From NCBI RefSeq assembly GCF_044324875.1, contig NZ_CP172185.1: a stretch of 64,000 bases of DNA; one strand, given 5' to 3'. The notes beneath the pieces were generated by a model. That model was not told the origin of the DNA and made no database searches. It worked only from the letters and a program-made list of their open reading frames with translations. The position numbers and the translations under genes were made by a program. Below, one piece after another: positions 4,711-63,487 of this stretch; positions within the stretch are counted from its first letter, which is position 1; each line of letters opens with the position of its first letter. This DNA comes from Escherichia coli. GTDB taxonomy: Bacteria; Pseudomonadota; Gammaproteobacteria; Enterobacterales; Enterobacteriaceae.

Positions 4711-6912
4711 TCAGAATAATACTGAGTAACTCAGACCAAAGGTGCGGCCCCTGCCTTTGTAGCCGTACAGTGAAGCAGGGCCGTAACCCGGGCTGTAGTA
4801 CAGTGGCGCACGCTGCCCCCAGACAGTGGTGTAGTCACGGTCGAAGAGGTTTTCAATGCTGAAGCTGAGTGTACCCACCGGAAGCTGATAACTGCCAAGC
4901 AAATCGACGATGGTATAGCCATCGACCTTGTAGCCCTGCGCGTCGCTCACGTCAAAGGAGGTGGTGCTCTGCACTCGCAGACTCCACGGGTCCGGTGCCC
5001 AGCCAATGTAGGCTGTCGCTTTTGATGGGCTTGCTGTCTTCACATCGTATTTCTGCCAGGTACCGTTCACTTTCGACTCAGTTTTCAGCACGTTGAAGTT
5101 CACTCCGGTACTCCAGTCAGTATCAGGAATCAGGTAGTCCACCGCACCTTCCACGCCGTAAATACGGCGTTTGTCGTCCACCACACTGATGGTCAGATCT
5201 TTATTCGCCACCACGCTCTTATCAGAAATCGAATAGTAGGCCGCGATTTGGGTGCGCAGATTATTGCCAGTAAAGCGCCAGCCCAGCTCATAAGAATCGA
5301 CTTTCACGCCTTCCAGCTTGCTGTCGCTGACGTTCACACTCTTTGTTAGAGGAAGATGGCCGTTCACTGCAGCACCATAGATGCCGCGACCATAGTATTT
5401 ACCCGGGTCCGGCAGCTCCACGCCCTGGGAGAAGTTGAGCCATGCCTGCTGGCGTTCGGTGATATGCATCAGCAGACCAGCGTTGAACAGGAAGTTGTCG
5501 TAATCGACTGAGCCGCCAGGAATGGCGTCGGCGGATGTAGCCTTCCCGGCGGCAATCTGCCGTTGCTGCGCGTAGCCGATGAAATCATCAATCTTGTTTT
5601 CAGTGTACTGATAGCGTACGCCACCGTTGAGGGTAAAGAGATTATTGATGTCATAGCCTGATTGCAGGAAGACCGCCAGGTTGGTGATGTCATACGACGG
5701 ATAGCGCCCGGTGGTGTAAATCTTCTTGTTGTTCAGCCCTCCGGAAGCGCTTGCTTGAGCCAGGTCGAAGAACATCTGGTTGGAGGTAAAGCGCTCATGA
5801 TCAGCATCCAGCCCCCAGGTGATTTGCCAGCCGTCCATCGGTTTGCTGTTCAGAGTCAGTTTCATGCCGTACTGGTCGGTGTCCTGCTGTGACGAAGAGA
5901 AAGCCGTCACCTGTTTGTTCGCATTTACCGTCGGGAACGGGTAGAATCGCAACGACTCATCGCGGTAGTAAACCTGACCGACCAGCTCCTGTCCCAGGAA
6001 AGCGCTGTCAGAGTACTGCAGGCTGATCAAATGCCGCTCAGTGCCGGGAATACGGTCGGAATTCAGCCCGTTACTGACGAAGGGCGTGCTGGTCCCTCTG
6101 ATGGCAGAGAAGCCTTTCCCGAGATTAAGCCCGTAATCGTCGTCGCCCTGGCTTTTATAGTACTGTGTGATCAACTGAAGCTGCCGGGATTCATCGATGT
6201 TCAACGTTCCAGTTCCCATGATGTCCAGCCGATCGGAGTACTGCAGGCCGGTCTGGGTGTTATCAAGCAGGGTGGCATCGCCGTTACCGTCAAACCAGCC
6301 GCCAAATTTCTGATATGCCACGGAAAGACGTCCGGAGATATGCTCATTTCCGCCGGAGACAGCTCCGGCAATGCGTTCATCGTGATCTTTACTGCTGCTA
6401 AAGCCACTTTTGGTGCCAGCCTCAAACTCCTTCATGGTTTCCGGCTGGCCTTTTTTGCTCACGATGTTGATCAGGCCACCGGTACTGCCGCCGCCATACA
6501 GGGACGTCGCACCGGAGATCACTTCAATATGGTCGATATTAAAAGGATCTATAGAGTCCAGTTGTCGGCTGTCGGTACGTGAAGAGTTGAGACGCACGCC
6601 GTCAACCAGCACGACCAGCGGGCGGCCACGCACATTCATACCGTAGTTGGTGCGGCTCCGGCTGCTGACGTCAAGGCCAGGGATCAGCTGAGCCAGTGCG
6701 TCCTTAAGCTCTTTGCCGCCCTGAATCTGCTGTTCCAGTTCGGCGTTTTCGATAACCCAGGTGGTTTGTGCCATCTCCGCTACGGTGCGATTGCTGCGGT
6801 TGGCAGACACCACGAACGTTTCATCATCGGTTTGTTGAGCGACTGCTGGCGCCATCATGGTAAGAAGCAGTGGGTTGAGAGCCCAAAGCGTATACTTTTT
6901 GCTTATCATCAT
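4711..6912 (-). CDS. iutA: IutA, TonB-dependent ferric aerobactin receptor
   Basis: 733 aa with signal peptide, TonB box region, plug and beta-barrel ending in aromatic residue (…SYSVLF); sits immediately downstream of iucD. Confidence 0.93.
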   Translation of the reverse strand: MMISKKYTLWALNPLLLTMMAPAVAQQTDDETFVVSANRSNRTVAEMAQTTWVIENAELEQQIQGGKELKDALAQLIPGLDVSSRSRTNYGMNVRGRPLVVLVDGVRLNSSRTDSRQLDSIDPFNIDHIEVISGATSLYGGGSTGGLINIVSKKGQPETMKEFEAGTKSGFSSSKDHDERIAGAVSGGNEHISGRLSVAYQKFGGWFDGNGDATLLDNTQTGLQYSDRLDIMGTGTLNIDESRQLQLITQYYKSQGDDDYGLNLGKGFSAIRGTSTPFVSNGLNSDRIPGTERHLISLQYSDSAFLGQELVGQVYYRDESLRFYPFPTVNANKQVTAFSSSQQDTDQYGMKLTLNSKPMDGWQITWGLDADHERFTSNQMFFDLAQASASGGLNNKKIYTTGRYPSYDITNLAVFLQSGYDINNLFTLNGGVRYQYTENKIDDFIGYAQQRQIAAGKATSADAIPGGSVDYDNFLFNAGLLMHITERQQAWLNFSQGVELPDPGKYYGRGIYGAAVNGHLPLTKSVNVSDSKLEGVKVDSYELGWRFTGNNLRTQIAAYYSISDKSVVANKDLTISVVDDKRRIYGVEGAVDYLIPDTDWSTGVNFNVLKTESKVNGTWQKYDVKTASPSKATAYIGWAPDPWSLRVQSTTSFDVSDAQGYKVDGYTIVDLLGSYQLPVGTLSFSIENLFDRDYTTVWGQRAPLYYSPGYGPASLYGYKGRGRTFGLSYSVLF

Positions 6913-6993
6913 TATTCCTCCACACGGGCGGAAAAAATCAGCCCAAAGATGCTGTGTAGCGAGTTAAAGAAGCAGCCTCCGGCTGCGTTTTCC

Positions 6994-8271
6994 CTAGGTG
7001 CCGCTGCGCCACTGAATCAGGGCGGGCGGCATACTGAGATCGAATAAATCACGTCCCATTACACGATTAAGAATACGTGCAGATCTCCATGCCATCAGGC
7101 TGAGCTGAGGTTCGGCGATGCCATGGGTTTGCATACTGGCGTTGACCACGAAGATGTTGTTCTCTTTCGGGCCACTCCATTCCAGAGTGAAGTCATCACG
7201 CACTTTAAAGGTGTTCTTATCGTGCATGGTGATCAGCGGCATCAGTGAGGGAAGTATTTGTGGCAACGCAGAACGGTAACCTGTGGCGAAAATCACCACA
7301 TCACTTTCCAGGCTCTCCCTGCCCTGATCCAGATGATGCTCCATCAGCAACTTCCAGCCAGGACCACTACTTTCCAGAGTTGTTACCGAGCGGCTAGGTA
7401 GCAGACGGATATTTCTTGGTTTTCTCAGAACTTCAAAACGGTGGTACAACTCACGATAAATGGTCAGTAAAGAATCGGCAGTGATGCCATCCGATGTCAT
7501 TTTCTGCTCATCCAGTAACTGATGGCGAATATCTTCCTCCAGTCCGGAGAAGCCTGAAATATATTCAGGTGTAAAATACTCATCAGCAAAAGCAGCCTCA
7601 TCCAGTGCGTTAAAATTATTCCGCCGGGAGATCCAGTTTATTTCCGCCGCTTCTCCCCATTCCCCGCGTAATGCATTAAGGAACAGGTCTGCACCACTCT
7701 GTCCTCCACCAACCACGGTTACCCGTTTTTCACTAAGGTCCGGCCGACGAAGATTCATTTCACTGGCATGGAAACAGGATTGTGTCATATGCTTCACACA
7801 GGGTGGTAAATAAGGTTGTTTTCCTGTACCAAGGCAGATATTGTGGGCAAAATATTCTCCCCGGCTGGTTTGCACCAGAAACAATCGACGTTTTTTATCG
7901 AAATCAATGTTTTCAACGGTATGACTGAAATACAGGTTATTCATATCTTCAGCAGCCCAGCGGAGGTAGTCAGAAAACTCTTCACGGGATACTGTACGTA
8001 GTCTGCTTGTAAGGAAGCGATAGAACTTTTTGTGCTTCACCAGATAGTTAACAAAGCTGTAGGGATTTGTAGGTGCAACAGCACTGACCAGATCTTTCAG
8101 AAAGACGGTCTGCATATGACAATCCGGTACCAGCATACCCGGATGCCAGGAAAAATGAGGATGTTCATCAAAGAAGAGACAGTCCAGTTCTTCGATCTGA
8201 TGTGACAACGCAGCAATGCTGAGATTAAATGGCCCTGTCCCTACACCAATAAAATCGACACTTTTTTTCAT
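6994..8271 (-). CDS. iucD: IucD, L-lysine N6-monooxygenase
   Basis: 425 aa; FAD GxGxxG motif near N-terminus (FIGVGTGPFNLS) and second dinucleotide motif (VVGGGQSGAD); position in operon. Confidence 0.93.
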   Translation of the reverse strand: MKKSVDFIGVGTGPFNLSIAALSHQIEELDCLFFDEHPHFSWHPGMLVPDCHMQTVFLKDLVSAVAPTNPYSFVNYLVKHKKFYRFLTSRLRTVSREEFSDYLRWAAEDMNNLYFSHTVENIDFDKKRRLFLVQTSRGEYFAHNICLGTGKQPYLPPCVKHMTQSCFHASEMNLRRPDLSEKRVTVVGGGQSGADLFLNALRGEWGEAAEINWISRRNNFNALDEAAFADEYFTPEYISGFSGLEEDIRHQLLDEQKMTSDGITADSLLTIYRELYHRFEVLRKPRNIRLLPSRSVTTLESSGPGWKLLMEHHLDQGRESLESDVVIFATGYRSALPQILPSLMPLITMHDKNTFKVRDDFTLEWSGPKENNIFVVNASMQTHGIAEPQLSLMAWRSARILNRVMGRDLFDLSMPPALIQWRSGT

Positions 8272-10010
8272 GATTCATATTCCTGAGTTACCAGCCACAG
8301 CGGATTTTGCAGATCCTCAAGGTAATTCGGCAGCATGCGGCTGCCGCCATCCAGATCAGGCCAGGTCAGTTTTACCGGGTTCAGCACCACGCGAATGATT
8401 TGTGGCCTGAAAAGTGAGAAAAGCGCAAAACGCTCTGACATTTGTGGATGTTTTTTCATGTAATCACTCAACACTGCTGCCAGCAGTTGATAAAATCGCC
8501 GTTCAGGTACGCCAAGACGAACCATCAGTGGCGAAATAAAACGCAGTACTGTCACGAAGTGACCCGTCTGCAAATCATGGATTAAGTAGTCCGCACTCAG
8601 GCGGGATGTAACATCACGAACCTCCTGAGGCAAAGAGTCCATTTCGGGGAACTCTTCTTTCACCAGCCGCATATCGCCCTGGAAGTCTTTCAGCAGAACA
8701 CGCTGTGGAACCCCCTTTTTCATGGCGAGCGTTATATTTTGTCCATGTGCAATAAGCGCGACACCGTAGCGGCAAAGCAGGTGATACAGAGGAACCACGA
8801 CCACCCGGAACAGTTGCGTAAGCCAGGTTTCAGCGTCCAGCCCGGAGCGGTCTATATATGCGCCTGCCAGCGGCTGATCGTTTTCGTCGCACTCCATCAG
8901 TGTTGCCATCAGAACCGGACTTTCATCCGGTTTCAGCCAGCGGCACGGATTCTCCCGCCAGATAACACCAAGCATTTCCTGGTAGCGATAGGGAGCCCGG
9001 GCAAGCGCGGCATAGCCTTCATGGGAGACATAGCCTGCAGCCGGTTCACCAAGGATCACTGCACCGCTTTGCACCAGGGTAGCGTCGGTCGCAAAAACCT
9101 GTTGTAGCCAGCGTGAAGCCAGTGGTCCGGCAGCGATGTATCTGCCAGGAATCCCCCGGTAGCATGAGGTGTTGTAGATGGTCAGCGGCAGCTTGATATC
9201 CAGCCCACCCCGGCGACTGGCGTTGGTCAGGGTACGCAGCGACTGCTGGGCGAGCCACTGGTCGCCAAACTCGCCGAGAGACACCATCCTGCCTTCGGCA
9301 AAATCAGCGATGAAGTCGGTGGCGATTTTTTGCTGCCACTGCCACGGATGTACAGGCAGCGGCAGCCAGTTATGATCCAGTCCGTTTTCCTGCCAGACCT
9401 GACTGAAGCGGGCAAACTCCTGCGGATCCATTGCGGCCGTCAACAACTGATGAATATCCATCTCGTTATCACAGCGCCAGATCATATGTTCACGTTTTAC
9501 CGCCAGCCAGTGCAGTCTAAAGGTGTTGGCATACTCTGGCGCATATCGTTCCAGCGCCTCTTTACCCCAGCCACGGCGACCTTTATTAAAAACGAATTTA
9601 GGATGACCGCTCAGCAGGCATTGCAGGCGGTCGGCACTAAGATTAATCAGGTCACTGGCGCTCAGCCCGCGACGGGCTTTCAGCAGTTGCAGGTCGCCCA
9701 GCAGCGTGGAATACAAATCCTGCATATGCTCAGCAACGGTTGCATCGCTCATTGACAGTACCTGCTTTAGCTGCATCAGCAGCGTCTGAGCCAGTACTGG
9801 CTCGTCCGCGCAGCGCAGAGTTTGAGCATCAATCCAGAGCCAGCCCCAGATACCACGTTCAGCGATGAAGCGCCATTGTGCTCCCGGCAGGTTAATGCAG
9901 TAGCGGTCATCGCCCTGAGATTCCGCGTGGAAAACCTGCTCATACTCCAGCTCAGACAACATTTTTGCCACCAAGCGGCGGTTGACCAAATCCCAGTCTT
10001 TGTGATTCAT
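8268..10010 (-). CDS. iucC: IucC, aerobactin synthase (IucA/IucC family)
   Basis: 580 aa NRPS-independent siderophore synthetase; 4-bp overlap with iucD. Confidence 0.93.
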   Translation of the reverse strand: MNHKDWDLVNRRLVAKMLSELEYEQVFHAESQGDDRYCINLPGAQWRFIAERGIWGWLWIDAQTLRCADEPVLAQTLLMQLKQVLSMSDATVAEHMQDLYSTLLGDLQLLKARRGLSASDLINLSADRLQCLLSGHPKFVFNKGRRGWGKEALERYAPEYANTFRLHWLAVKREHMIWRCDNEMDIHQLLTAAMDPQEFARFSQVWQENGLDHNWLPLPVHPWQWQQKIATDFIADFAEGRMVSLGEFGDQWLAQQSLRTLTNASRRGGLDIKLPLTIYNTSCYRGIPGRYIAAGPLASRWLQQVFATDATLVQSGAVILGEPAAGYVSHEGYAALARAPYRYQEMLGVIWRENPCRWLKPDESPVLMATLMECDENDQPLAGAYIDRSGLDAETWLTQLFRVVVVPLYHLLCRYGVALIAHGQNITLAMKKGVPQRVLLKDFQGDMRLVKEEFPEMDSLPQEVRDVTSRLSADYLIHDLQTGHFVTVLRFISPLMVRLGVPERRFYQLLAAVLSDYMKKHPQMSERFALFSLFRPQIIRVVLNPVKLTWPDLDGGSRMLPNYLEDLQNPLWLVTQEYES

Positions 10011-10957
10011 TACAGACCGACCTCCGTGAAGAAGTGATGACGATCCGCCATCACCATGCGCGAGCGTTTATGTGGGAAGTCGAACTCTTTAATTGTCCGG
10101 TATCCCGCAGGCTCAAGATGGCGGAACAGGCGCTGGTTATCGGTGCGTGGCTCCAGTACTGTGCGCTGCGTACGTGGCTCATTCAGCAGCAGGTAATGTG
10201 TCACCCCGCGCAGCCAGCTTTGCACATAGTGGGCTCCGCGCCATTGCTGTTCACCAACCAGCAGATGCAGGCCACGGTCAAAGGGCTGCCACGAATAGTG
10301 GCGACCAATGCGGTCTTCCGCCGCCCAGTAGATTTCGAAATAACTGAACGGCCGATCGTCGAAACAACCAATCAGCGGGAATGCATGTTTACTGGTGAGC
10401 TGGCGTTCCAGATAGGCGATCTGTACCTCCAGTGAGCCACTTTGCTCCCAGAAATACTCAACGCGCGGATCGTTCATCCAGCGAGTGAAACGTTCTGCAT
10501 CAGAAACGGGATCGGCAATGCGGAAACTCAGCATCCTGCGAATGCGTGGATCGTAACGACGATAAACTTCACCCTGCGGACGGGGGGGGCGCTGCGGGAA
10601 ATAAATCTCACGCTCTGCATCAAAAACCATTTCACCGGAGGCCCGGTTTGCCGGAGAACTCAGCCATAACGGTAACTGCCAGAAAGCGGAACGATGGATA
10701 ATGTCGCTTTGTACCTGTCCGAAAAGCGTCAGCGCCTGTGGCTCCTCACACCATTCGGACCAGGGAAGAACCACTGCTGAAAGTTGTGGTGCGGCGATAA
10801 ATATCTGATCCAGCGCGTCGCACAGCCATCCTGTTGGCAGCTCCCCGGGCCAGTGCAACACCGCGCTATTGTCCAGCCCCCAGCCAAGATTCAGAGGCTT
10901 GTCGAGTTTTTCACAGCGCAGTCCATATCCGCTGTGAACAATGTTTGCCCCAGACAT
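10010..10957 (-). CDS. iucB: IucB, N6-hydroxylysine O-acetyltransferase
   Basis: 315 aa acetyltransferase between iucA and iucC. Confidence 0.92.
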   Translation of the reverse strand: MSGANIVHSGYGLRCEKLDKPLNLGWGLDNSAVLHWPGELPTGWLCDALDQIFIAAPQLSAVVLPWSEWCEEPQALTLFGQVQSDIIHRSAFWQLPLWLSSPANRASGEMVFDAEREIYFPQRPPRPQGEVYRRYDPRIRRMLSFRIADPVSDAERFTRWMNDPRVEYFWEQSGSLEVQIAYLERQLTSKHAFPLIGCFDDRPFSYFEIYWAAEDRIGRHYSWQPFDRGLHLLVGEQQWRGAHYVQSWLRGVTHYLLLNEPRTQRTVLEPRTDNQRLFRHLEPAGYRTIKEFDFPHKRSRMVMADRHHFFTEVGL

Positions 10958-53967: not shown

Positions 53968-54103
53968 AGCAACACCATTAACAACTCAAAAACATAACAA
54001 TATATTGCATAACAAATGGAGCTCCATGTAGTCAAGAAGCTTCATAGCAGGAAAAACTCATAGCACAATAGCTATCACATTTAATGTTCTGTGTCTTTTT
54101 CAG

Positions 54104-54134
54104 GTATAAAAAAACCCACTCGGCGGCGGGTTTT
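54104..54134 (-). terminator. Intrinsic terminator downstream of the Q-like gene (candidate tR' of the late promoter)
   Basis: Minus strand AAAACCC-GCCGCCGAGU-GGGUUUU followed by a U-run. Confidence 0.5.
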
Positions 54135-54217
54135 GCTTGATTTGCCATTACGTACAAAATCGGCAGAATATCAAATTCACACGAAATATATGCCTTTTAA
54201 TCTACTTTTGCAATACT

Positions 54218-54892
54218 TTACTGTGAAAATGCCGCCTTTTGTTTTGAACGTGTTCTCGTCACAAACAATAAAGCCTCACTATCCAGCCGGTGAAAAATGT
54301 GTTTCATTGCAATCCAGTGACCAGTAAATGTTTTGGACCAGTTTTTGGCTGTCACTCCCGCCAGTAATGCCAGATCCTGGTATTCGTAACCTTCCTTACC
54401 AAAAATTTCTGCTTTTACTGCCTGCGCCGCCAGCCAGATTAATTTTTTCAGGCGTTCCCGTGTTTTCTCTGCAATTTTCCTGTTGCCACAATGGGCCTTA
54501 AACTCTTCCCATGCCCAGTGGGTTATAGTGACCTGATACTCCCAGCAAATACTCCCGCTGTAACACCACAACAACCAGGCTTTCTGATGTTCTTCAATAG
54601 ACAGAACCGCCCGCCGCCATGATGATGTCGAAAACTCAACCGGGCTGACCAGGGCAATTGATGAGCCTTTCGCCAGCGATTGTTTTCCCGGGATTGGTGG
54701 ATTATCCCGCGTTATCATTTTTCCAGTCACTTCATCGCGGTACCGGATTTTTTTACGCCTGTAACGCCCTGTATCGAACATGGCATTCTCCTGCCAGGCT
54801 TCAAGCTGACCTTTTGTTGCCCCACTCAAATCAGCGGTGGCGATAATGAGCTGCTCACGCACAAACTGTAAATACTGGTTATTCATGCGCAC
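54218..54892 (-). CDS. Late-gene antiterminator Q-like protein (Qin QuuQ-type)
   Basis: 224 aa directly downstream of rusA and upstream of the terminator/lysis region; call is by position and size. Confidence 0.5.
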   Translation of the reverse strand: MRMNNQYLQFVREQLIIATADLSGATKGQLEAWQENAMFDTGRYRRKKIRYRDEVTGKMITRDNPPIPGKQSLAKGSSIALVSPVEFSTSSWRRAVLSIEEHQKAWLLWCYSGSICWEYQVTITHWAWEEFKAHCGNRKIAEKTRERLKKLIWLAAQAVKAEIFGKEGYEYQDLALLAGVTAKNWSKTFTGHWIAMKHIFHRLDSEALLFVTRTRSKQKAAFSQ

Positions 54893-55248
54893 TCCAGTTC
54901 TGTGATTTTTATCCCCAGCCGCCCACCAGGAACGGGCTGACCGCGCACAATATTAATTTCATCAAACTGCTCGTCGTCTATGAATAGTCCGGCATGCGTC
55001 AGTGCATCCAGTGGTGCCTTCAGGATATTGTCCAGGTCGCGGCGGCGCTTATCCGGTGGCTCTGCAATAATTTTTATTGCCAGCCTTCCGGACAGGTTTA
55101 ATTTCAACCGCTGTTGGCGAACAATTAACGCCACATCCCGGCGATAACGTTCACCGACTTTTGATACAAAATATGTGCTGCCACGACGTCGCCAGTAAGT
55201 ATTCACCGTTGGCGGGTAAGGCAAAACAAATTCTATGTGTTCAGTCAT
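54883..55248 (-). CDS. rusA: RusA Holliday-junction resolvase
   Basis: 121 aa; RRRDLDN motif and overall match to RusA. Confidence 0.85.
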   Translation of the reverse strand: MTEHIEFVLPYPPTVNTYWRRRGSTYFVSKVGERYRRDVALIVRQQRLKLNLSGRLAIKIIAEPPDKRRRDLDNILKAPLDALTHAGLFIDDEQFDEINIVRGQPVPGGRLGIKITELECA

Positions 55249-56397
55249 TTATGCATTCCACTTCAGGACGCCCGAATTTTTCGCGTGCATTAAAAAACAA
55301 ATCAACAACAACAGCTGGCTGCCGTGTTTTTCTTCAAATTCTTTTACCCCGGCATGCAGTTCGTTGTGGCATTTACGACACAGCGGAATAACAAATAAAT
55401 CGTCAGCCTTTGTTCCCATCCCTCCCAGTCCATGACCAATGATGTGATGCGGATCATCTGCCTGATTGCCACACGTCATGCATTTCTGCGTTTTTACCCA
55501 GCGCGTGTATACGGGCATCTCTTCCCGTTGTGGTTTCTGGCGCCGGAGATACTGAGCCGGAGAATCGGGATCAACGGTAAGGGTGACCACCTTATTTTCC
55601 TGTGGTCGGTTCTGTTGCTGGTGGGTCGGCAGCACAAGATTTTTTGTGCGCTGTTTCAGTATGCTGGTGGCGGTCTTTTCTCCTGGTATGATGTCGCTTT
55701 CGCGGTATACAGAGCGTATTTTTTCCGCAGGTAATCCCATCGAACGACTCAATACTGTCTCGGGTAGTGCATCCGTCACCTGATTGCACACCGCCCACCA
55801 GCATAATTCAGCCAGCGATAATTCCCGCTCCTGCGTGCCGTTCATTGCATGGCGTATGACGTCAATCATCCATTCTGCCTGGTTTTGTTGAGCAAGTTGC
55901 TCAAGTGATTCGGATGTCTGGTCACGCAGCTGGTTGTCGCAGTGCCAGCACAACACCATCGCTCCGGTACCGTAACGATGTATGACGGTTTCACTGTGAT
56001 GATAGTCACCATGAGGCCACTGGCAGGATTTGACATGACGCAACAGCCAGTCAGACAGTGCACCAGCGCCGCCGGCAGCACGAATCACACGCTCATTGCT
56101 GAAAAATGGGAGTAATGATTTATCTTCCGCCAACGGCTGGCGAACGGCAGGAACGACTCCGGACGGCAGACCGCGCATGCTTTTCGGTTCAGGCTCCACC
56201 AGCACACGCCCCTGCATAAACAAAGGCATCGCATCAGGACCGGGTCTGAAAAGTACAATCCCCAGACGGTGAGCAATTTCAGGTGTCACTAATACCCTCA
56301 CGTTACCTCCAGATCCGTTGCTGGTACGTGCGGGATGGACGCGGTGGGCGTTCGGAATAAGGGAGCCTGACGGAGATGATCCAGTACAGGCGGTCAA
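55249..56397 (-). CDS. DUF968-type protein with C-terminal HNH-like zinc motif (YdfU-like); start uncertain
   Basis: C-terminal CxxC...HHIIGHGLGGMGTKADDLFVIPLCRKCHNELH. Confidence 0.6.
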   Translation of the reverse strand: MTACTGSSPSGSLIPNAHRVHPARTSNGSGGNVRVLVTPEIAHRLGIVLFRPGPDAMPLFMQGRVLVEPEPKSMRGLPSGVVPAVRQPLAEDKSLLPFFSNERVIRAAGGAGALSDWLLRHVKSCQWPHGDYHHSETVIHRYGTGAMVLCWHCDNQLRDQTSESLEQLAQQNQAEWMIDVIRHAMNGTQERELSLAELCWWAVCNQVTDALPETVLSRSMGLPAEKIRSVYRESDIIPGEKTATSILKQRTKNLVLPTHQQQNRPQENKVVTLTVDPDSPAQYLRRQKPQREEMPVYTRWVKTQKCMTCGNQADDPHHIIGHGLGGMGTKADDLFVIPLCRKCHNELHAGVKEFEEKHGSQLLLLICFLMHAKNSGVLKWNA

Positions 56398-56635
56398 GAC
56401 TTAGGTCTTTCTGAAACTCGTAACCACGTCTGCGGTAGTTCTGAATTAGCCACTCTGCCTGTTCTTCAGTACATGGATCATGCCGGAACCAGTCAGATTT
56501 GAATGCGTGTGAATGCCGCCCGTGCCTGCTGGCAAAGACGGCGAGATTATCAGAATTGTGTAATCTGGTATCGTGCGCCATCCGTTGTCTCTGCTGGCGC
56601 AGCAGGTGCCAGTTGTTCAGGCTGGCTGGAGGCAA
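56303..56635 (-). CDS. Hypothetical nin-region protein
   Basis: 110 aa ORF; overlaps the extended start of the next gene so one of the two starts is wrong. Confidence 0.4.
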   Translation of the reverse strand: MPPASLNNWHLLRQQRQRMAHDTRLHNSDNLAVFASRHGRHSHAFKSDWFRHDPCTEEQAEWLIQNYRRRGYEFQKDLSLDRLYWIISVRLPYSERPPRPSRTYQQRIWR

Positions 56636-56716
56636 TATTGTCTCTGATTTCTGTTGTCGTCAACAGGCAGCGTGCTATCATCGAATGGTGTTCTATCCTA
56701 CTCCGTGAGGTTTACC

Positions 56717-56974
56717 ATGCGTACAACCCAACAATTCAGTATTACATTAACTAACGAGATGGCTGACATGGTGCGCTCCCGTGTGGCTTCCGGTGCCTAT
56801 GCTTCAGAAAGCGAGGTCATTCGTGAAGGGCTTCGCGCACTGAATGAGCGCGATAAAGCAATCGAAGCGTGGTTAACGCATTCAGTCGCCCCCTCTCTTG
56901 ATTCTATCCGCGAAAACCCAAACAACGGACGCTCCATTTCACAGGTTCGCGCCGCGATTAGATCCGGGAAGTAG
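56717..56974 (+). CDS. ParD-like type II antitoxin (ribbon-helix-helix)
   Basis: Start at internal Met (MRTTQQFSITLTNEMADMVRSRVASGAYASESEVIREGLRAL); 6 bp before the toxin gene. Confidence 0.7.
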   Translation: MRTTQQFSITLTNEMADMVRSRVASGAYASESEVIREGLRALNERDKAIEAWLTHSVAPSLDSIRENPNNGRSISQVRAAIRSGK

Positions 56975-56979
56975 TCTGC

Positions 56980-57279
56980 ATGACATTTGAAGTCATCATT
57001 ACCCCCGAGGCCGAACAGCAGATAATAAACCTGCACAGATATATAACGGAGAAAGCAGGAGGCGTCATTGCTGACAATTATGCCAATGCGCTTCTTGATT
57101 ATCTTGATGGGTTTTCTGCATTTCCGCATCGGGGCAATAAACGCGATGATATTCGCCAGGGGATGCGGGTAACTCATTTCCGCCACAGAACGATTATTGC
57201 TTTTGCCGTTGATGACAATAAAGTCTTTATCGCAGGTGTTTATCATGGCGGACAAAGTTATGAAACCGATTTCTTATAA
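56980..57279 (+). CDS. ParE/RelE-family toxin
   Basis: 99 aa basic protein immediately downstream of the antitoxin. Confidence 0.7.
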   Translation: MTFEVIITPEAEQQIINLHRYITEKAGGVIADNYANALLDYLDGFSAFPHRGNKRDDIRQGMRVTHFRHRTIIAFAVDDNKVFIAGVYHGGQSYETDFL

Positions 57280-57361
57280 ACTTGTCCCCACAGAATTCCG
57301 GTGTTAGAATAAAATGTCCGCCCGCTCTCTTGCTGGCGGATTCGTAAGCCATATAAATCAA

Positions 57362-57397
57362 AGCTCCCGACTCATGTTTGTGTCGGGAGCTTTTTTC
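57362..57397 (+). terminator. Intrinsic terminator after the toxin gene
   Basis: agctcccgac-loop-gtcgggagc followed by six T. Confidence 0.65.
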
Positions 57398-57483
57398 AAC
57401 GATTTATCCCCAACCGCAAATAGAATACATCACCAGCGCCTCCGCCATTGCAATTCCTGCCGTTGTGAATGCTTCAGGCCAGG

Positions 57484-59926
<2,443 letters not shown>

Positions 59927-59954
59927 TCATGCCCTTCCTGATAATTAATCTCGC

Positions 59955-60131
59955 TCATTCATCGCCCCACTCATCACAATATGCTTCGACCGGAGTTTTT
60001 CCTGCTTCGTAGTCATCACGCCAGGCTTCAGCATCAGCAGCACTTCCACCACGTAACTCTGCATAATCCATTAACAGTTCATGCCATTCTTCAAAACTGA
60101 CGTTGTATTTAGTTGAACCAAAACCAGCCAT
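59955..60131 (-). CDS. Hypothetical small acidic protein (58 aa)
   Basis: Hand-translated ORF below the ORF-track cutoff; its ATG lies 20 nt before the stop of the upstream ORF. Confidence 0.3.
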   Translation of the reverse strand: MAGFGSTKYNVSFEEWHELLMDYAELRGGSAADAEAWRDDYEAGKTPVEAYCDEWGDE

Positions 60132-60306
60132 TTTGTTCTTCCTCTTCGTCTTTTATTTCGTGATATGAGTAATTGCAGTAGTTAAAGAAAATTTCTTTTG
60201 CTTCGTCATGAATTTCATCAGGTGTTGCGTCATCGTCCACTTCGAATACATCCTCAAAATCTCCACCAGCTATTCCAGTTTCAATAATTATTTTGAACTT
60301 TCGCAT
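60109..60306 (-). CDS. Hypothetical small acidic protein (65 aa)
   Basis: ORF in phage early-right region. Confidence 0.35.
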   Translation of the reverse strand: MRKFKIIIETGIAGGDFEDVFEVDDDATPDEIHDEAKEIFFNYCNYSYHEIKDEEEEQNGWFWFN

Positions 60307-60399
60307 TTCACTACCGCCCTTTCGGGTGGCCTCCTGCTGTTCTGAAGGTGCAGAAATCCCTCCGGTTAAGGATTAAATTTTTAACAGTGCTAAATTTAA

Positions 60400-60756
60400 T
60401 TATTCAGTTCTGGATTTTGTCACCCTGCGTATCCGCGCTTTCGCGTTACGCTCAATCTGAATTAGCTTTTCTATATTTTTTCGCCTTTCCCGTTCCTCCT
60501 GGCGCAAGAGCCTTACATCATCTGCCAGTCTGGTTTCTCTTTTCGCCACAGAGAGCATCCAGTCAAATGGCTCCACAACTGCACCGCAGATTTTACAGCG
60601 GACCTGACGCTCTTTTTCGTCAACCCGGACAGAGGCGTGATGACAATATGGTCTTTCCGATGGCTCATAAAGAAAATTAACCTGATTACGTGGGTCATCC
60701 TCTTTTACCGGAAATAAAACAATATTACTTAACTCATCTTCTGCTTTTATTTCCAT
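60400..60756 (-). CDS. Hypothetical zinc-ribbon protein
   Basis: 118 aa with CHH...CxxC motif and basic C-terminus. Confidence 0.45.
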   Translation of the reverse strand: MEIKAEDELSNIVLFPVKEDDPRNQVNFLYEPSERPYCHHASVRVDEKERQVRCKICGAVVEPFDWMLSVAKRETRLADDVRLLRQEERERRKNIEKLIQIERNAKARIRRVTKSRTE

Positions 60757-60809
60757 GCTCCTCTCCTTTGATGCGAATGCCAGCGATAATTGAAGCCTGA
60801 TAGCTAATT

Positions 60810-61265
60810 TTACTCACAGCCCCCCTGATAATTTCCCTGATAAAACGCCAGCACGCGCTGCATAACTTCGCTCTTCCTGCACTCGCAACAGATTATGTTC
60901 TGACGCCTGTCGTAGCGGCGTATTTCTCCGTCTGGTAATGACCAGATAAGGTCAGGATCAACCACAACCGGTTTTTTCACCTTTTCCCTTGATAGTTTTT
61001 TGCGGGCGTTTTGCCAGTCTTTACGCGCCTGCTCAGACGGGAATAATCCGTAGCCTGAATTGTATACATCACCACTGGCAACCAGCTCTCTGGCAAGAAC
61101 GCTCAGCAGATATCTTGTCGCACCTGTTTTCGCTTCCAGTTGTCGTAACGTCTCGCGCCCGCTCTGTCGCACGAGTTCGACAACCTGCCTCTTAATTTTT
61201 TCCCGCTCTTCCTGTGTAAATACTTTTTTCACAAGTCCTCCTGAAAAATCTCCTTCACAATTCAT
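60810..61265 (-). CDS. Hypothetical nin-region protein
   Basis: 151 aa ORF with 4-bp overlap to the P-like gene. Confidence 0.45.
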   Translation of the reverse strand: MNCEGDFSGGLVKKVFTQEEREKIKRQVVELVRQSGRETLRQLEAKTGATRYLLSVLARELVASGDVYNSGYGLFPSEQARKDWQNARKKLSREKVKKPVVVDPDLIWSLPDGEIRRYDRRQNIICCECRKSEVMQRVLAFYQGNYQGGCE

Positions 61266-61725
61266 ACAAAACCAGCCGCTTTCCGGCGTTCATACTCCTG
61301 TTTCAGCAACTCAATTGGCGTTGGTCCCGACGGGCGTTTGGGGGCCGCCAGTTGTCGCCGGACTGGCGGAACGCTGAGGCCCATACCAACATGCTTTGAC
61401 CATTTCGTCAGTTGCCGTTCTGCAAACCGTTTTAACTCCCCTTCGGTCATCTGGCGTTCAATCCCCTTTGAACGCATCTCGAGGCATATGTGATACAGCA
61501 CAGGCTGAGACCACGGGTATTTATCGCTTCCGTCGTATCGCCAGGACTCATTGCGCCAGCGTCGGTACTCCTCCATCACAGCACCCACCGTCAGACCGAA
61601 TGGATTGGCCCCGCTTTCCGGAATCAGTGCCACAAACTCAGCCAGGTCAGGAGGCCATGTTTCACCCGCCCGGCAGCGGTCCATGCACTGGCGGCAGACC
61701 TGCCGGATTTGCTGCTCAGTCATCG
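61262..61725 (-). CDS. Replication protein P-like (helicase loader); start uncertain, ORF could extend to 61927
   Basis: C-terminal region resembles lambda P (YPWSQPVLYHICLEMRSKG...); start set to the Met overlapping the upstream stop. Confidence 0.55.
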
Positions 61726-62726
61726 CGCCAATCTGTGCAATCCAGAGCTTCGAAGGTGCGGCCCCGTTCTTCCGGGTCCAGCGGTCCGAATAAACCTCCC
61801 CCATGAGTTCCCACAGCTTCCAGGCTGTTTCCGTCGCTGATAAATCCGTTTTCACGTTCCCACTGCTCACGTGCTGCCCGAATTTCCTGAACTGCCCGTG
61901 ATGCGGTGCCACCTGGTGCTGCTGCATGGTTCACCCCCTTGCTGACTGGTTTAACCTGCGCCCTGACGTGATTTACGTGACGGGCGAATTTCTGCTCCCA
62001 CTGAACCTGTGTGAACACTTTCCCCTCCGCCATCCAGTAATCCCGGAAGGCGGCAAGTTCAGCAGGTGTAAATTCCGGTTCCGGCAAAGCCGCTCCCCAC
62101 AACGCAGCCCGCCGTCGAAAATCCAGCGACGGATGCCAGCCATCGGCCATCGGAAATTTCCCGATGGGTTCACTCATGCCGTCCAGATATCCGGGCTCCG
62201 TTGCCTGCGATGGCGTACCGTTCGACTCACTGGTCGGAGCACTCTCGCGCACGCGCGCGTTATGTGTGGGGTTTAATTCTTTATCTGTATCTTTATTAGT
62301 TGCCTTTGTGTTTGCGTCATGTTCAAACACCACACCAATATTTGTTTGAACACCTGTTAAATCTCTCTCTTGTTTTGTTTGAACATCTGCTTCCTTTCTG
62401 CTTCTTCTGGCCTGAACAGATGCTTTTCCGGCGGCTGATTTTTTGGTTAATTTTTCCCTGACTGATGCCAGATCTTCCTCAATCCGAAGATGCACCCATT
62501 CATCGCCGTTATCGTGAAAAAACTCCCGCAAGGATGGCTCCACATCAGCCCATCGCTCATTAGTCAGACGGGCAATTTTTGCCAGCCTGTTTTTAGGTAT
62601 TGGCTTTCCTGTTTGCCAGTAATTGAACATCAGCAACAAATATGCACCGTGCTCCTCTGCTGATAAATGCATGGTGTCAGCCAGGTAATCAGCGATGTAC
62701 AGTTGCATGTATGGTAATGCGGCCAT
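61716..62726 (-). CDS. Replication initiation protein (DUF1376/YdaU-like N-terminal domain, O-analogue)
   Basis: N-terminus YMQLYIADYLADTMHLSAEEHGAYLLLMFNYWQTGKPIP typical of DUF1376. Confidence 0.65.
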   Translation of the reverse strand: MAALPYMQLYIADYLADTMHLSAEEHGAYLLLMFNYWQTGKPIPKNRLAKIARLTNERWADVEPSLREFFHDNGDEWVHLRIEEDLASVREKLTKKSAAGKASVQARRSRKEADVQTKQERDLTGVQTNIGVVFEHDANTKATNKDTDKELNPTHNARVRESAPTSESNGTPSQATEPGYLDGMSEPIGKFPMADGWHPSLDFRRRAALWGAALPEPEFTPAELAAFRDYWMAEGKVFTQVQWEQKFARHVNHVRAQVKPVSKGVNHAAAPGGTASRAVQEIRAAREQWERENGFISDGNSLEAVGTHGGGLFGPLDPEERGRTFEALDCTDWRDD

Positions 62727-62796
62727 AATTGCCTCTTCTGATACCGAATTCCTTAATCACGTACTACCGAAAGCGATCCGGTATAACTATTGCCAG

Positions 62797-63222
62797 TCAG
62801 TGCATCACCACAGCATTACCCGCCGGGCCACCACGATTCATCTGATTGAAACCGGCGATTGCCACTGCGATAAAATCATCAGCGTCTCTCACCAGCCGTT
62901 CTCGTGTCTCCAGCAGCTCCCTGAAATAGGCTGAGCTGTGGCTACGCATTCTGGCCACCAGCAAAGGCGGCATTGCCTTTTCGATCGCTGGTAGTAACGC
63001 CTGAATTTTTACAACCGCATCAGGGGTGTCTTTCTCCACCCAGCGGAAAATTTTCTGGGTATTACGGGCCAGGGCTTCGGGATGGCTGTCGTCATACAGT
63101 TCCGGGAACGTCATACCCAGCTCAAAATAAGCCCGGGTTATTTCAGCTGCCGGAACTTTTTCGCCATCAGGACGCGCCCAGGCATTCATCGCCATGCGGA
63201 TGTGTTCATGCTTGATTTTCAT
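62797..63222 (-). CDS. YdaT-like regulator (CII-analogue of Rac-type prophages)
   Basis: 141 aa beginning MKIKHEHI, downstream of the Cro-like gene. Confidence 0.55.
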   Translation of the reverse strand: MKIKHEHIRMAMNAWARPDGEKVPAAEITRAYFELGMTFPELYDDSHPEALARNTQKIFRWVEKDTPDAVVKIQALLPAIEKAMPPLLVARMRSHSSAYFRELLETRERLVRDADDFIAVAIAGFNQMNRGGPAGNAVVMH

Positions 63223-63487
63223 GAATCAAGCTCCTAGTAAGTGGTTGTGTTAACGTTTTGGTATCTTCCAGCTCGGGCCAAATATTCATCCAATCAAAAG
63301 GCCTTAGTTGCTGACGTGTAACTTCACCATTACTGGCTCGCTCAATAAGGACACATAACGATGCCCCTAACATTTGACCTTTACTCAATGCCTTTCTTAG
63401 ATAACCGATGCTAGTACCACACTCACATGCAAACATACGCTGTTCATCTGACGAAAGAGAATTGAGAAATATTCTTAATTCTTCCAT
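63206..63487 (-). CDS. Cro-like HTH regulator (YdaS-like)
   Basis: 93 aa; C-terminal segment ...CVLIERASNGEVTRQQLRPFDW resembles YdaS. Confidence 0.6.
   Translation of the reverse strand: MEELRIFLNSLSSDEQRMFACECGTSIGYLRKALSKGQMLGASLCVLIERASNGEVTRQQLRPFDWMNIWPELEDTKTLTQPLTRSLIHENQA

What the first reader, a model, noticed from the sequence alone, without database searches (positions are those of the whole stretch)
59955..61265. Block of unannotatable early-right genes including a zinc-ribbon protein and two tiny acidic proteins
Four ORFs between the P-like gene and IS100 have no recognisable domains. Small acidic proteins and zinc-ribbon proteins in this part of lambdoid genomes include host-takeover and anti-defence factors, so these are candidates for new functions.
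Basis: inference. Interest (0 to 1): 0.4.

Follow-up and report, generated by a model that had tools for sequence, protein, structure and literature searches.

The report
Ordinary prophage accessory genes, one Ren-like
The four small genes are real, conserved accessory genes of a lambda-like E. coli prophage; they are already catalogued in databases and present in about 15% of complete E. coli genomes, the first is a relative of phage lambda's Ren protein, and the other three still have no known function.

Summary
The four ORFs exist where stated, all on the minus strand, downstream of the cro/cII/O/P genes of a Rac-/lambda-like prophage. All four are under strong purifying selection (dN/dS 0.04-0.22).

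"No recognisable domains" is wrong for two of them:
- ORF1 (60810-61232, 140 aa from a GTG start) is Pfam DUF977 and PHROG 142 "Ren-like exclusion protein". It aligns to lambda Ren (hhalign 95%, E 3.5e-8) and sits where ren sits, directly after P.
- ORF3 is Pfam DUF7167.

The other two descriptions hold:
- ORF2 has a CHCC zinc ribbon followed by a 55-residue helix. Residues 93-109 of that helix are invariant or nearly so across genera.
- ORF4 is a confidently modelled acidic three-helix protein. Its family also occurs in virulent Ackermannviridae phages.

None of ORF2-4 matches a solved structure, NinB-NinH, TraR/Orf73, or a PADLOC or NCBIfam model.

At least 80% of the 1.5-kb query spanning the block is found in 821 of 5,426 complete E. 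coli genomes. ORF2-4 plus a ParDE pair recur at 93-97% amino-acid identity in the early-left region of Stx2a phages.

Verdict: ordinary, already catalogued accessory genes. An anti-defence role is possible but has no direct support.

The parts
60810..61232 (-). ORF1: Ren-like winged-helix protein (Pfam DUF977, PHROG 142), 140 aa from a GTG start. The longer ORF from the ATG at 61265 is probably not translated.
   Evidence: Pfam DUF977 3.9e-30. PHROG 142 2.7e-45; lambda Ren hits the same PHROG at 1.6e-41. hhalign against lambda Ren: 95%, E 3.5e-8. Start site. dN/dS 0.07.
60400..60756 (-). ORF2: 118-aa CHCC zinc ribbon followed by a single long basic helix (phrog_1621, function unknown).
   Evidence: Invariant C37/H39/C53/C56, and residues 93-109 invariant or nearly invariant. 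AF2 pLDDT 77, hairpin 42-53, helix 62-116. Conservation is at protein level because synonymous sites vary. dN/dS 0.06-0.09.
60109..60306 (-). ORF3: acidic DUF7167 protein, 65 aa here and 60 aa in most relatives (phrog_1997).
   Evidence: Pfam DUF7167 2.8e-14. pI 4.06. Tail variant. Stand-alone homologues in Klebsiella phages, and weaker matches in Enterococcus phages. dN/dS 0.05.
59955..60131 (-). ORF4: 58-aa acidic three-helix protein (matches the C-terminal part of the phrog_519 profile).
   Evidence: phrog_519 1.8e-22. pI 4.08. AF2 pLDDT 88, pTM 0.72, three helices. 199 phage records, including Vi01 and CBA120. No fold match.
59867..59958 (-). 5' fragment (30 codons) of the fifth cassette gene (171 aa when intact, phrog_660), cut by IS100.
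   Evidence: Collinear with L001 5577-6092. phrog_660 1.7e-73 for the intact copy. Reconstruction.
57913..59866 (+). IS100 (IS21 family; istA and istB), flanked by the 5-bp target duplication GTAAC.
   Evidence: Window 54001-57912 equals L001 2094-6005, and window 59867-63234 equals L001 6001-9367. 99.9% identical to annotated IS100. Ends and duplication shown.
57484..57912 (-). 3' fragment of the fifth cassette gene. It also carries a nonsense change (CAG to TAG) at codon 34.
   Evidence: The C-terminal 53 aa are 66% identical to ArgO145 gp10.
56717..57279 (+). ParD/ParE toxin-antitoxin pair, convergent with the operon. It travels with the cassette.
   Evidence: RefSeq annotation of the intact copy. 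97% and 93% aa identity to Stx2a phage ArgO145 gp08 and gp09.
61262..61723 (-). Context: lambda P-like helicase loader, directly upstream of ORF1.
   Evidence: Pfam Phage_lambda_P 2.1e-14. RefSeq 'replication protein P' in the intact copy.

Best explanation
The block is a run of dispensable delayed-early accessory genes in the rightward (PR) operon of a lambdoid, Rac-like E. coli prophage. It is transcribed on the window's minus strand after cro, cII, O and P, and before Q.

ORF1 is the counterpart of lambda ren. It has a winged-helix protein with the Ren C-terminal motif N-x4-ECRxSxxMxRVLAxY, and it most likely acts at or with the phage replication complex. In lambda, Ren protects the phage from Rex-type abortive exclusion.

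ORF2, ORF3 and ORF4 are three independent families of small non-enzymatic proteins that probably act by binding:
- ORF2 probably dimerises through its long helix. It would use the invariant basic stretch NIEKLIQIERNAKARIR, together with its zinc ribbon, to bind a conserved host or phage macromolecule (nucleic acid or protein).
- ORF3 and ORF4 are acidic mini-proteins that most likely bind and modulate protein partners.

Together with a fifth gene and a ParDE pair they form a mosaic cassette that recombination moves between the nin-type region and the early-left exo-xis/Ea22 region of lambdoid phages.

Shown: the gene reality, the family memberships, the Ren homology, the predicted architectures and the mobility of the cassette. 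Inferred: all biochemical activities.
For: A PR-like promoter lies at 63541-63514, and no promoter-like site lies on the minus strand inside the block.

Purifying selection.

Ren homology. The winged-helix signal comes from PDB profile hits at E about 0.01 and from Kinch et al. 2009 (PMC2686095). Ren is called 'likely involved in DNA replication' and shows two-hybrid contacts with Rex proteins in bioRxiv 10.1101/2021.04.19.439022. ren and the nin genes are non-essential delayed-early genes (PMC10695390).

ORF2: architecture and protein-level invariance are shown. Its homologues sit in the nin region just upstream of Q in Serratia and Yersinia prophages.

Cassette mobility: ORF2, ORF3 and ORF4 are 97%, 97% and 93% identical, and ParD and ParE 97% and 93% identical, to genes in the early-left region of Stx2a phage ArgO145, between Ea22-like genes. 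Neighbours vary across 158 IMG/VR loci.

No enzymatic, defence or NCBIfam model hits any ORF.
Confidence: 0.7

Rival explanations
1. ORF2, ORF3 and/or ORF4 are counter-defence proteins. They would be small early inhibitors that bind and neutralise a host immune system such as restriction, CRISPR or abortive infection.
For: They are small, acidic (pI about 4.1) and non-enzymatic. They lie in variable accessory regions next to an orphan DNA methyltransferase, an anti-repressor and a toxin-antitoxin pair in ArgO145. The ORF4 family is spread across temperate and virulent Enterobacterales phages (199 records). phrog_519 was called a candidate anti-CRISPR by two machine-learning predictors (bioRxiv 10.1101/2022.06.14.493971).
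Against: No similarity of sequence or fold to any solved structure, and therefore to none of the known anti-defence proteins among them. The machine-learning calls are weak. In Ackermannviridae the ORF4 homologue lies just downstream of the major capsid gene, which is not an obviously early locus. The supplements of a 2024 anti-defence prediction study contain none of these families.
Confidence: 0.2
2. ORF2-4 modulate the lysis-lysogeny decision or host physiology, like the lambda/Stx-phage exo-xis genes (orf60a, orf61, orf63, orf73, ea8.5, ea22). They would tune prophage induction and host growth rather than immunity.
For: In Stx2a phages the same three genes lie inside the exo-xis region between two Ea22-like genes. 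The fifth cassette gene shares the Ea22-type N-terminus MSEI(N/D)YQ. Exo-xis genes are documented to affect lysogenisation and induction (PMC3824215 and PMC7093339, listed).
Against: No sequence relationship to lambda orf60a, orf61, orf63, ea8.5, ea22 or Orf73/TraR. The evidence is position only.
Confidence: 0.25
3. The block encodes prophage-borne superinfection-exclusion or defence functions that are expressed in the lysogen for the benefit of the host.
For: PHROG 142 is filed under 'moron, auxiliary metabolic gene and host takeover'. A ParDE pair lies nearby.
Against: No PADLOC hit. No promoter-like site on the coding strand within the block. The genes overlap or abut within the PR operon, which the repressor keeps silent in a lysogen.
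Confidence: 0.07
4. Some of the tiny ORFs are not genes, only chance open frames.
For: They are very short (58-65 aa). NCBIfam and PADLOC have no model for any of them, and ORF4 has no Pfam hit either.
Against: dN/dS is 0.04-0.22. PHROG hits range from 1e-22 to 1e-30. Homologues are conserved in distant phages. The AF2 model of ORF4 is confident.
Confidence: 0.01

Closest known systems
Bacteriophage lambda Ren (gene ren, NP_040633; PHROG 142)
   Same: ORF1 shares the PHROG (2.7e-45 against 1.6e-41 for Ren), an N-terminal winged-helix region and the C-terminal motif N-x4-ECRxSxxMxRVLAxY. It also shares the position immediately after the P helicase-loader gene in the PR operon.
   Different: ORF1 is 140 aa against 96 aa for Ren, with an inserted segment of about 45 residues (GxFPSE...W...) between the two conserved parts. 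It scores as Pfam DUF977, whereas lambda Ren does not reach DUF977 at E<=1. The intact copy of the prophage has no annotated rexAB. Function was not tested.
Lambda nin-region genes (NinB-NinH) and Rac YdaW
   Same: Same kind of locus: non-essential delayed-early genes between the replication genes and Q. ORF2 homologues lie next to NinG/NinH or RusA and Q in Yersinia and Serratia prophages.
   Different: No sequence similarity to NinB-NinI. K-12 YdaW is HTH+DUF1627, not DUF977, and does not align to ORF1.
Exo-xis/Ea22 region genes of lambda and Stx phages
   Same: ORF2-4 occur at 93-97% aa identity between Ea22-like genes in Stx2a phage ArgO145. The fifth gene carries an Ea22-type N-terminus.
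   Different: No homology to orf60a, orf61, orf63, ea8.5, ea22 or Orf73/TraR.
TFIIB-type zinc ribbon (Pfam PF08271) / S27e zinc ribbon
   Same: ORF2 residues 36-73 give weak hits (E 1.6e-4 and 0.049). The top Foldseek hit is the TFIIB N-terminal ribbon.
   Different: The score is below Pfam's cut-off (21.6 against 29 bits). The ligand set is CHCC rather than C4. It is followed by a 55-residue helix that those families lack.
phrog_519 proteins of Kuttervirus and other Ackermannviridae (for example Vi01_151c, CBA120 orf183)
   Same: ORF4 shares 55-60% identity and the motif GSAADAxAWxxDYxxGKTP...DEWG with them.
   Different: There the gene stands without DUF7167, downstream of the major capsid gene. 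Function is unknown in both settings.

Membership tests
Lambda Ren family (PHROG 142) | Significant match to the family profile that contains lambda Ren | tested here: met
   ORF1 2.7e-45; lambda Ren 1.6e-41 against the same profile.
Lambda Ren family (PHROG 142) | Direct homology to lambda Ren, including the C-terminal motif | tested here: met
   hhalign of the DUF977 alignment against Ren: probability 95%, E 3.5e-8, 81 columns. All seven nearly invariant C-terminal residues (N, E, C, R, S, M, R) are kept in Ren.
Lambda Ren family (PHROG 142) | Gene lies immediately downstream of the helicase-loader gene in the PR operon | tested here: met
   P ends at 61262 and ORF1 starts at 61232. The lambda layout is shown.
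Lambda Ren family (PHROG 142) | Confers resistance to Rex-dependent exclusion | not testable with these tools
   This is a genetic phenotype. The intact copy of the prophage has no annotated rexAB.
Pfam DUF977 (PF06163) | Score above the gathering threshold | tested here: met
   105.1 bits against a cut-off of 22.1, covering 3-134 of 134 profile positions.
Pfam DUF7167 (PF23768) | Score above the gathering threshold | tested here: met
   ORF3 scores 53.4 bits against a cut-off of 24.4.
TFIIB-type zinc ribbon (PF08271) | Score above the gathering threshold | tested here: not met
   ORF2 scores 21.6 bits against a cut-off of 29.
Zinc ribbon (generic fold) | Four conserved metal ligands on two beta-hairpin knuckles | tested here: met
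   C37, H39, C53 and C56 are invariant in 36 sequences. Strands 42-45 and 50-53 appear in the model. The top Foldseek hit is 1pft, at E 0.22 only.
Lambda NinB-NinI | Sequence similarity to any nin protein | tested here: not met
   BLASTP gives no hit better than E 0.07 for any ORF.
DksA/TraR/lambda Orf73 | Homology to the TraR-type zinc finger with coiled coil | tested here: not met
   hhalign probability 3% against lambda Orf73. No PF01258 hit.
Rac YdaW (K-12) | Sequence similarity to YdaW | tested here: not met
   No BLASTP alignment. YdaW is HTH+DUF1627.
Known anti-phage defence systems (PADLOC) | Match to any defence-protein model | tested here: not met
   0 families at E<=1 for all ORFs.
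PHROG 519 | Match to the family profile | tested here: met
   ORF4 1.8e-22, over profile positions 76-137 of 143. The Vi01 homologue covers the same part.
Anti-CRISPR or other anti-defence proteins | Inhibition of a defence system, or fold identity with a known inhibitor | tested here: inconclusive

The most novel reading that the evidence does not exclude
ORF2 and/or ORF4 are inhibitors or effectors of a new kind that target a highly conserved Enterobacterales macromolecule. For ORF2 the active element would be the 17-residue stretch NIEKLIQIERNAKARIR, invariant or nearly so from Escherichia to Yersinia and Serratia, presented on a zinc-ribbon-anchored helix. For ORF4 it would be the Trp-rich acidic motif GSAADAxAWxxDYxxGKTP..DEWG, which is shared by temperate prophages and virulent Ackermannviridae. 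The target could be a defence system or a core host machine such as replication, transcription or translation.
Probability: 0.2. Interest if true: 0.5.

Novelty: already known. Interest (0 to 1): 0.15.

Why it matters
As it stands, little. The genes are near-identical (99.9% nucleotide identity) to copies annotated in RefSeq as "DUF977 family protein", "hypothetical protein" and "DUF7167 family protein". They belong to catalogued Pfam or PHROG families, and at least 80% of the 1.5-kb query is found in about 15% of complete E. coli genomes.

The useful outputs are:
- a corrected annotation: ORF1 is Ren-like with a GTG start, ORF3 has a read-through variant, and a fifth gene was destroyed by IS100;
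- the observation that the ORF2-4/ParDE cassette shuttles between the nin-type and exo-xis regions of lambdoid and Stx phages;
- two well-defined candidates for functional screening, ORF2 with its invariant helix and the widely distributed ORF4 family.

If either proved to be a host take-over or counter-defence factor, the result would be relevant to Stx-phage biology, because the same genes sit in Stx2a-converting phages.

Tried and rejected
- PDB sequence searches with the four single proteins and two profiles gave nothing significant. The only exception was weak winged-helix hits for ORF1.
- NCBIfam and PADLOC gave no hits.
- ORF1 as Rac YdaW, which would have linked it to the retron-Sen2 'blocker' result of bioRxiv 10.1101/2020.06.22.160242: rejected. 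K-12 YdaW is HTH+DUF1627 and does not align.
- ORF2 as a TraR/Orf73-like RNA-polymerase secondary-channel factor: rejected (hhalign 3%).
- ORF2 related to the ECs_2282 zinc-binding protein of the same prophage: rejected (6%).
- ORF2-4 homologous to lambda exo-xis, ral, gam or kil proteins: no hits.
- The conserved ORF2 helix as the reflection of a nucleotide-level element: rejected, because synonymous sites vary freely.
- ORF3 and ORF4 as an obligate pair. They are adjacent in 78/78 and 77/78 close relatives, but each stands alone in more distant phages, so the linkage is lineage-specific.
- An RNA structure in the ORF2-ORF3 spacer: not significant (z = -1.4).
- Literature searches for the PHROG ids, DUF names and WP accession returned only the Kuttervirus machine-learning anti-CRISPR mention.
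- The search for related loci returned only close relatives, so those loci were used for a context census rather than for deeper alignments.

Full report
**What is there**

All genes of the finding lie on the minus strand. Reading in the phage's rightward direction, the order is as follows:

| Position | Gene | Note |
|---|---|---|
| 63206-63487 | cro/YdaS-like | |
| 62797-63222 | cII/YdaT-like | |
| 61716-62726 | O-like initiator | DUF1376 + DnaT domains |
| ends at 61262 | lambda-P-like helicase loader | |
| 60810-61265 | ORF1 | 151 aa as listed |
| 60400-60756 | ORF2 | 118 aa |
| 60109-60306 | ORF3 | 65 aa |
| 59955-60131 | ORF4 | 58 aa |

A sigma-70-like promoter sits upstream of cro (63541-63514). 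No promoter-like site lies on the coding strand inside the block.

**Are they genes?**

Yes. At least 80% of the 1.5-kb query is found in 821 of 5,426 complete E. coli genomes, and the best matches are 99.9% identical. Against copies diverged by 4-11% (phage vB_EcoS-640R1 and Stx2a phage ArgO145), dN/dS is 0.07 for ORF1, 0.06-0.09 for ORF2, 0.05 for ORF3 and 0.04-0.22 for ORF4.

**The IS100 junction and a missed fifth gene**

Comparison with an uninterrupted copy (E. coli TUM9803, locus L001) shows window 54001-57912 collinear with L001 2094-6005, and window 59867-63234 collinear with L001 6001-9367. The inserted element is therefore 57913-59866, which is 1,954 bp. It is flanked by a 5-bp duplication, GTAAC, and is 99.9% identical to annotated IS100.

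The insertion split a fifth gene of the same transcription unit. That gene is 171 aa in L001 and hits phrog_660 at 1.7e-73. Its two remnants are a 30-codon 5' stub (59867-59958) and a 3' part (57484-57912). The 3' part has also acquired a nonsense codon. The exact junction is absent from all 5,426 complete E. coli genomes searched.

**ORF1 is Ren-like**

ORF1 scores 105 bits on Pfam DUF977 (cut-off 22) and 2.7e-45 on PHROG 142, 'Ren-like exclusion protein'. Lambda Ren itself hits that PHROG at 1.6e-41.

A profile of 14 diverse DUF977 proteins aligns to lambda Ren with hhalign probability 95%, E 3.5e-8, over 81 columns. Every nearly invariant C-terminal residue of the family (N..ECRxSxxMxR) is present in Ren's NLVFKECRQSAAMKRVLAVY.

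The N-terminal half gives borderline winged-helix hits (Z-alpha, MntR, AsnC; E about 0.01). This agrees with Kinch et al. 2009 (PMC2686095).

ORF1 also occupies ren's position, directly after P. Homologues align from residue 12-13. In relatives the corresponding codon is GTG or ATG, preceded by a conserved CAGGAGG, and similarity is lost further upstream. The real product is therefore 140 aa, from the GTG at 61232.

What is known of Ren is limited:
- It is non-essential (PMC10695390).
- It is described as 'likely involved in DNA replication'.
- It shows two-hybrid interactions with the Rex proteins (bioRxiv 10.1101/2021.04.19.439022).
- From my own knowledge (Toothman and Herskowitz 1980, not retrieved here), it protects lambda from Rex exclusion.

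K-12 YdaW is not a relative. It is HTH+DUF1627 and does not align to ORF1. The retron-blocker result for ydaW therefore does not transfer.

**ORF2**

- *Family range.* 150 homologues, all from Enterobacterales and none with an informative name.
- *Conserved residues.* In 36 diverse members C37, H39, C53 and C56 are invariant. So is much of the C-terminal helix, and residues 93-109 (NIEKLIQIERNAKARIR) are invariant or nearly so in proteins that are otherwise about 50% identical. Codon comparison across Escherichia, Serratia, Yersinia and Salmonella shows freely varying synonymous sites, so the constraint is on the protein.
- *Predicted structure.* AlphaFold2 (pLDDT 77) gives a small beta-hairpin ribbon (42-53) and one 55-residue helix (62-116, pLDDT above 90).
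- *Fold and family searches.* Foldseek against the PDB finds nothing at E<=0.001; the best hit is the TFIIB zinc ribbon at 0.22. The Pfam Zn_Ribbon_TF hit is below threshold. hhalign rejects a relationship with lambda Orf73/TraR and with the ECs_2282 zinc protein.
- *Genomic position elsewhere.* In Serratia and Yersinia prophages the gene lies in the nin region next to RusA or NinH, just before Q. In Salmonella it follows DUF1627-DUF977. In Stx2a phages it lies in the early-left region.

**ORF3**

ORF3 is Pfam DUF7167 (53 bits against a cut-off of 24) and phrog_1997, with pI 4.06. It is 60 aa in 154 of 160 relatives. The window's lineage has Trp in place of the stop codon, which adds WFWFN. 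Stand-alone homologues occur in Klebsiella phages, and weaker matches (39-42% identity, E 8e-4 to 6e-3) occur in Enterococcus phages.

**ORF4**

ORF4 matches the C-terminal part of the phrog_519 profile (1.8e-22) and has pI 4.08. Relatives with the motif GSAADAxAWxxDYxxGKTP..DEWG occur in 199 phage records. These include virulent Ackermannviridae such as Vi01 and CBA120, where the gene lies downstream of the major capsid gene and no DUF7167 gene is nearby.

**Cassette behaviour**

In 158 IMG/VR loci ORF3 and ORF4 are adjacent and overlapping in 78/78 and 77/78 cases. ORF2 lies immediately upstream in 42/76, and the fifth gene lies downstream in 46/78. These loci are all close relatives, and at greater divergence each gene stands alone.

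In Stx2a phage ArgO145 the same ORF2, ORF3 and ORF4 (97%, 97% and 93% aa identity) lie between two Ead/Ea22-like genes in the early-left exo-xis region. The same ParD/ParE pair (97% and 93%) lies nearby. The fifth gene begins with the Ea22-type N-terminus MSEI(N/D)YQ. The unit is thus a mosaic cassette that recombination moves between accessory regions of lambdoid phages.

**Interpretation**

The best-supported reading is ordinary accessory cargo: a Ren homologue followed by three independent small binding proteins of unknown function. No ORF has an enzymatic, defence (PADLOC) or NCBIfam signature.

I take protein or nucleic-acid binding to be the mode of action for ORF2-4, for three reasons:
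- their size;
- their charge (one basic helix protein and two acidic mini-proteins);
- the all-round invariance of the ORF2 helix.

Which process they affect is not resolved by any result here. The candidates are counter-defence, the lysis-lysogeny decision and host physiology (as for the exo-xis genes), or replication.

**Novelty and score**

Every family is already catalogued and the sequence is near-identical to many annotated genomes, so I rate it 'already known' with low interest. The residual novel possibility is that ORF2's invariant helix or the widely spread ORF4 family targets a conserved host or defence component in a new way. I put this at about 0.2.

Noticed in passing
window 57484-59958: IS100 (57913-59866, duplication GTAAC) split a fifth cassette gene (171 aa, phrog_660). 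The 3' remnant also carries a nonsense change (CAG to TAG) at codon 34. The IS sits in the opposite orientation inside the PR operon, between the replication genes and Q, so it may be polar on late-gene expression. The junction is absent from 5,426 complete E. coli genomes.
   Followed up: partly
window 56717-57279 (+): A ParD/ParE toxin-antitoxin pair lies convergent with the operon. It is 97% and 93% identical to gp08 and gp09 of Stx2a phage ArgO145, so it travels with the ORF2-4 cassette between different regions of lambdoid phages.
   Followed up: partly
window 60109-60126: ORF3 normally ends after ...EEEEQNG (60 aa in 154 of 160 relatives). In this lineage the stop codon is a Trp codon, which adds WFWFN and lengthens the overlap with ORF4.
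   Followed up: yes
window 60427-60477 (ORF2 residues 93-109): Seventeen consecutive residues (NIEKLIQIERNAKARIR) are invariant or nearly invariant across Escherichia, Salmonella, Serratia, Yersinia and Erwinia homologues that are otherwise about 50% identical, while synonymous sites vary. This is an unusually strong protein-level constraint with no known partner.
   Followed up: partly
window 4711-12745: An aerobactin cluster (IucA/IucC-family synthetase and a TonB-dependent receptor of IutA type) lies to the left of the prophage. It is followed by an MFS transporter and by ISL3- and Mutator-family transposases at 14.4-17.5 kb.
   Followed up: no
window 18373-19968 (-): A 531-aa ORF with a YadA-like membrane-anchor domain lies at the tail-fibre end of the prophage. 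It may be a trimeric-autotransporter-type moron.
   Followed up: no
phage record PP818812.1 (hit H12): 'Actinobacillus phage vB_Apl-pPE4' carries part of the cassette at 95% nucleotide identity to E. coli prophages. That is an odd match for a Pasteurellaceae host label.
   Followed up: no
L003 (K-12 Rac 4753-5313), L012/L013, IMG/VR loci: The slot right after the helicase-loader gene is regularly filled by winged-helix genes of different families (lambda Ren, DUF977, DUF1627/YdaW), sometimes by two in tandem (DUF1627 then DUF977). This suggests a conserved positional role linked to replication.
   Followed up: partly
window 61262-61927: The 221-aa ORF listed for P overlaps the 3' end of the O-like gene. 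RefSeq annotates P in the intact copy as 153 aa, which corresponds to window 61262-61723.
   Followed up: partly
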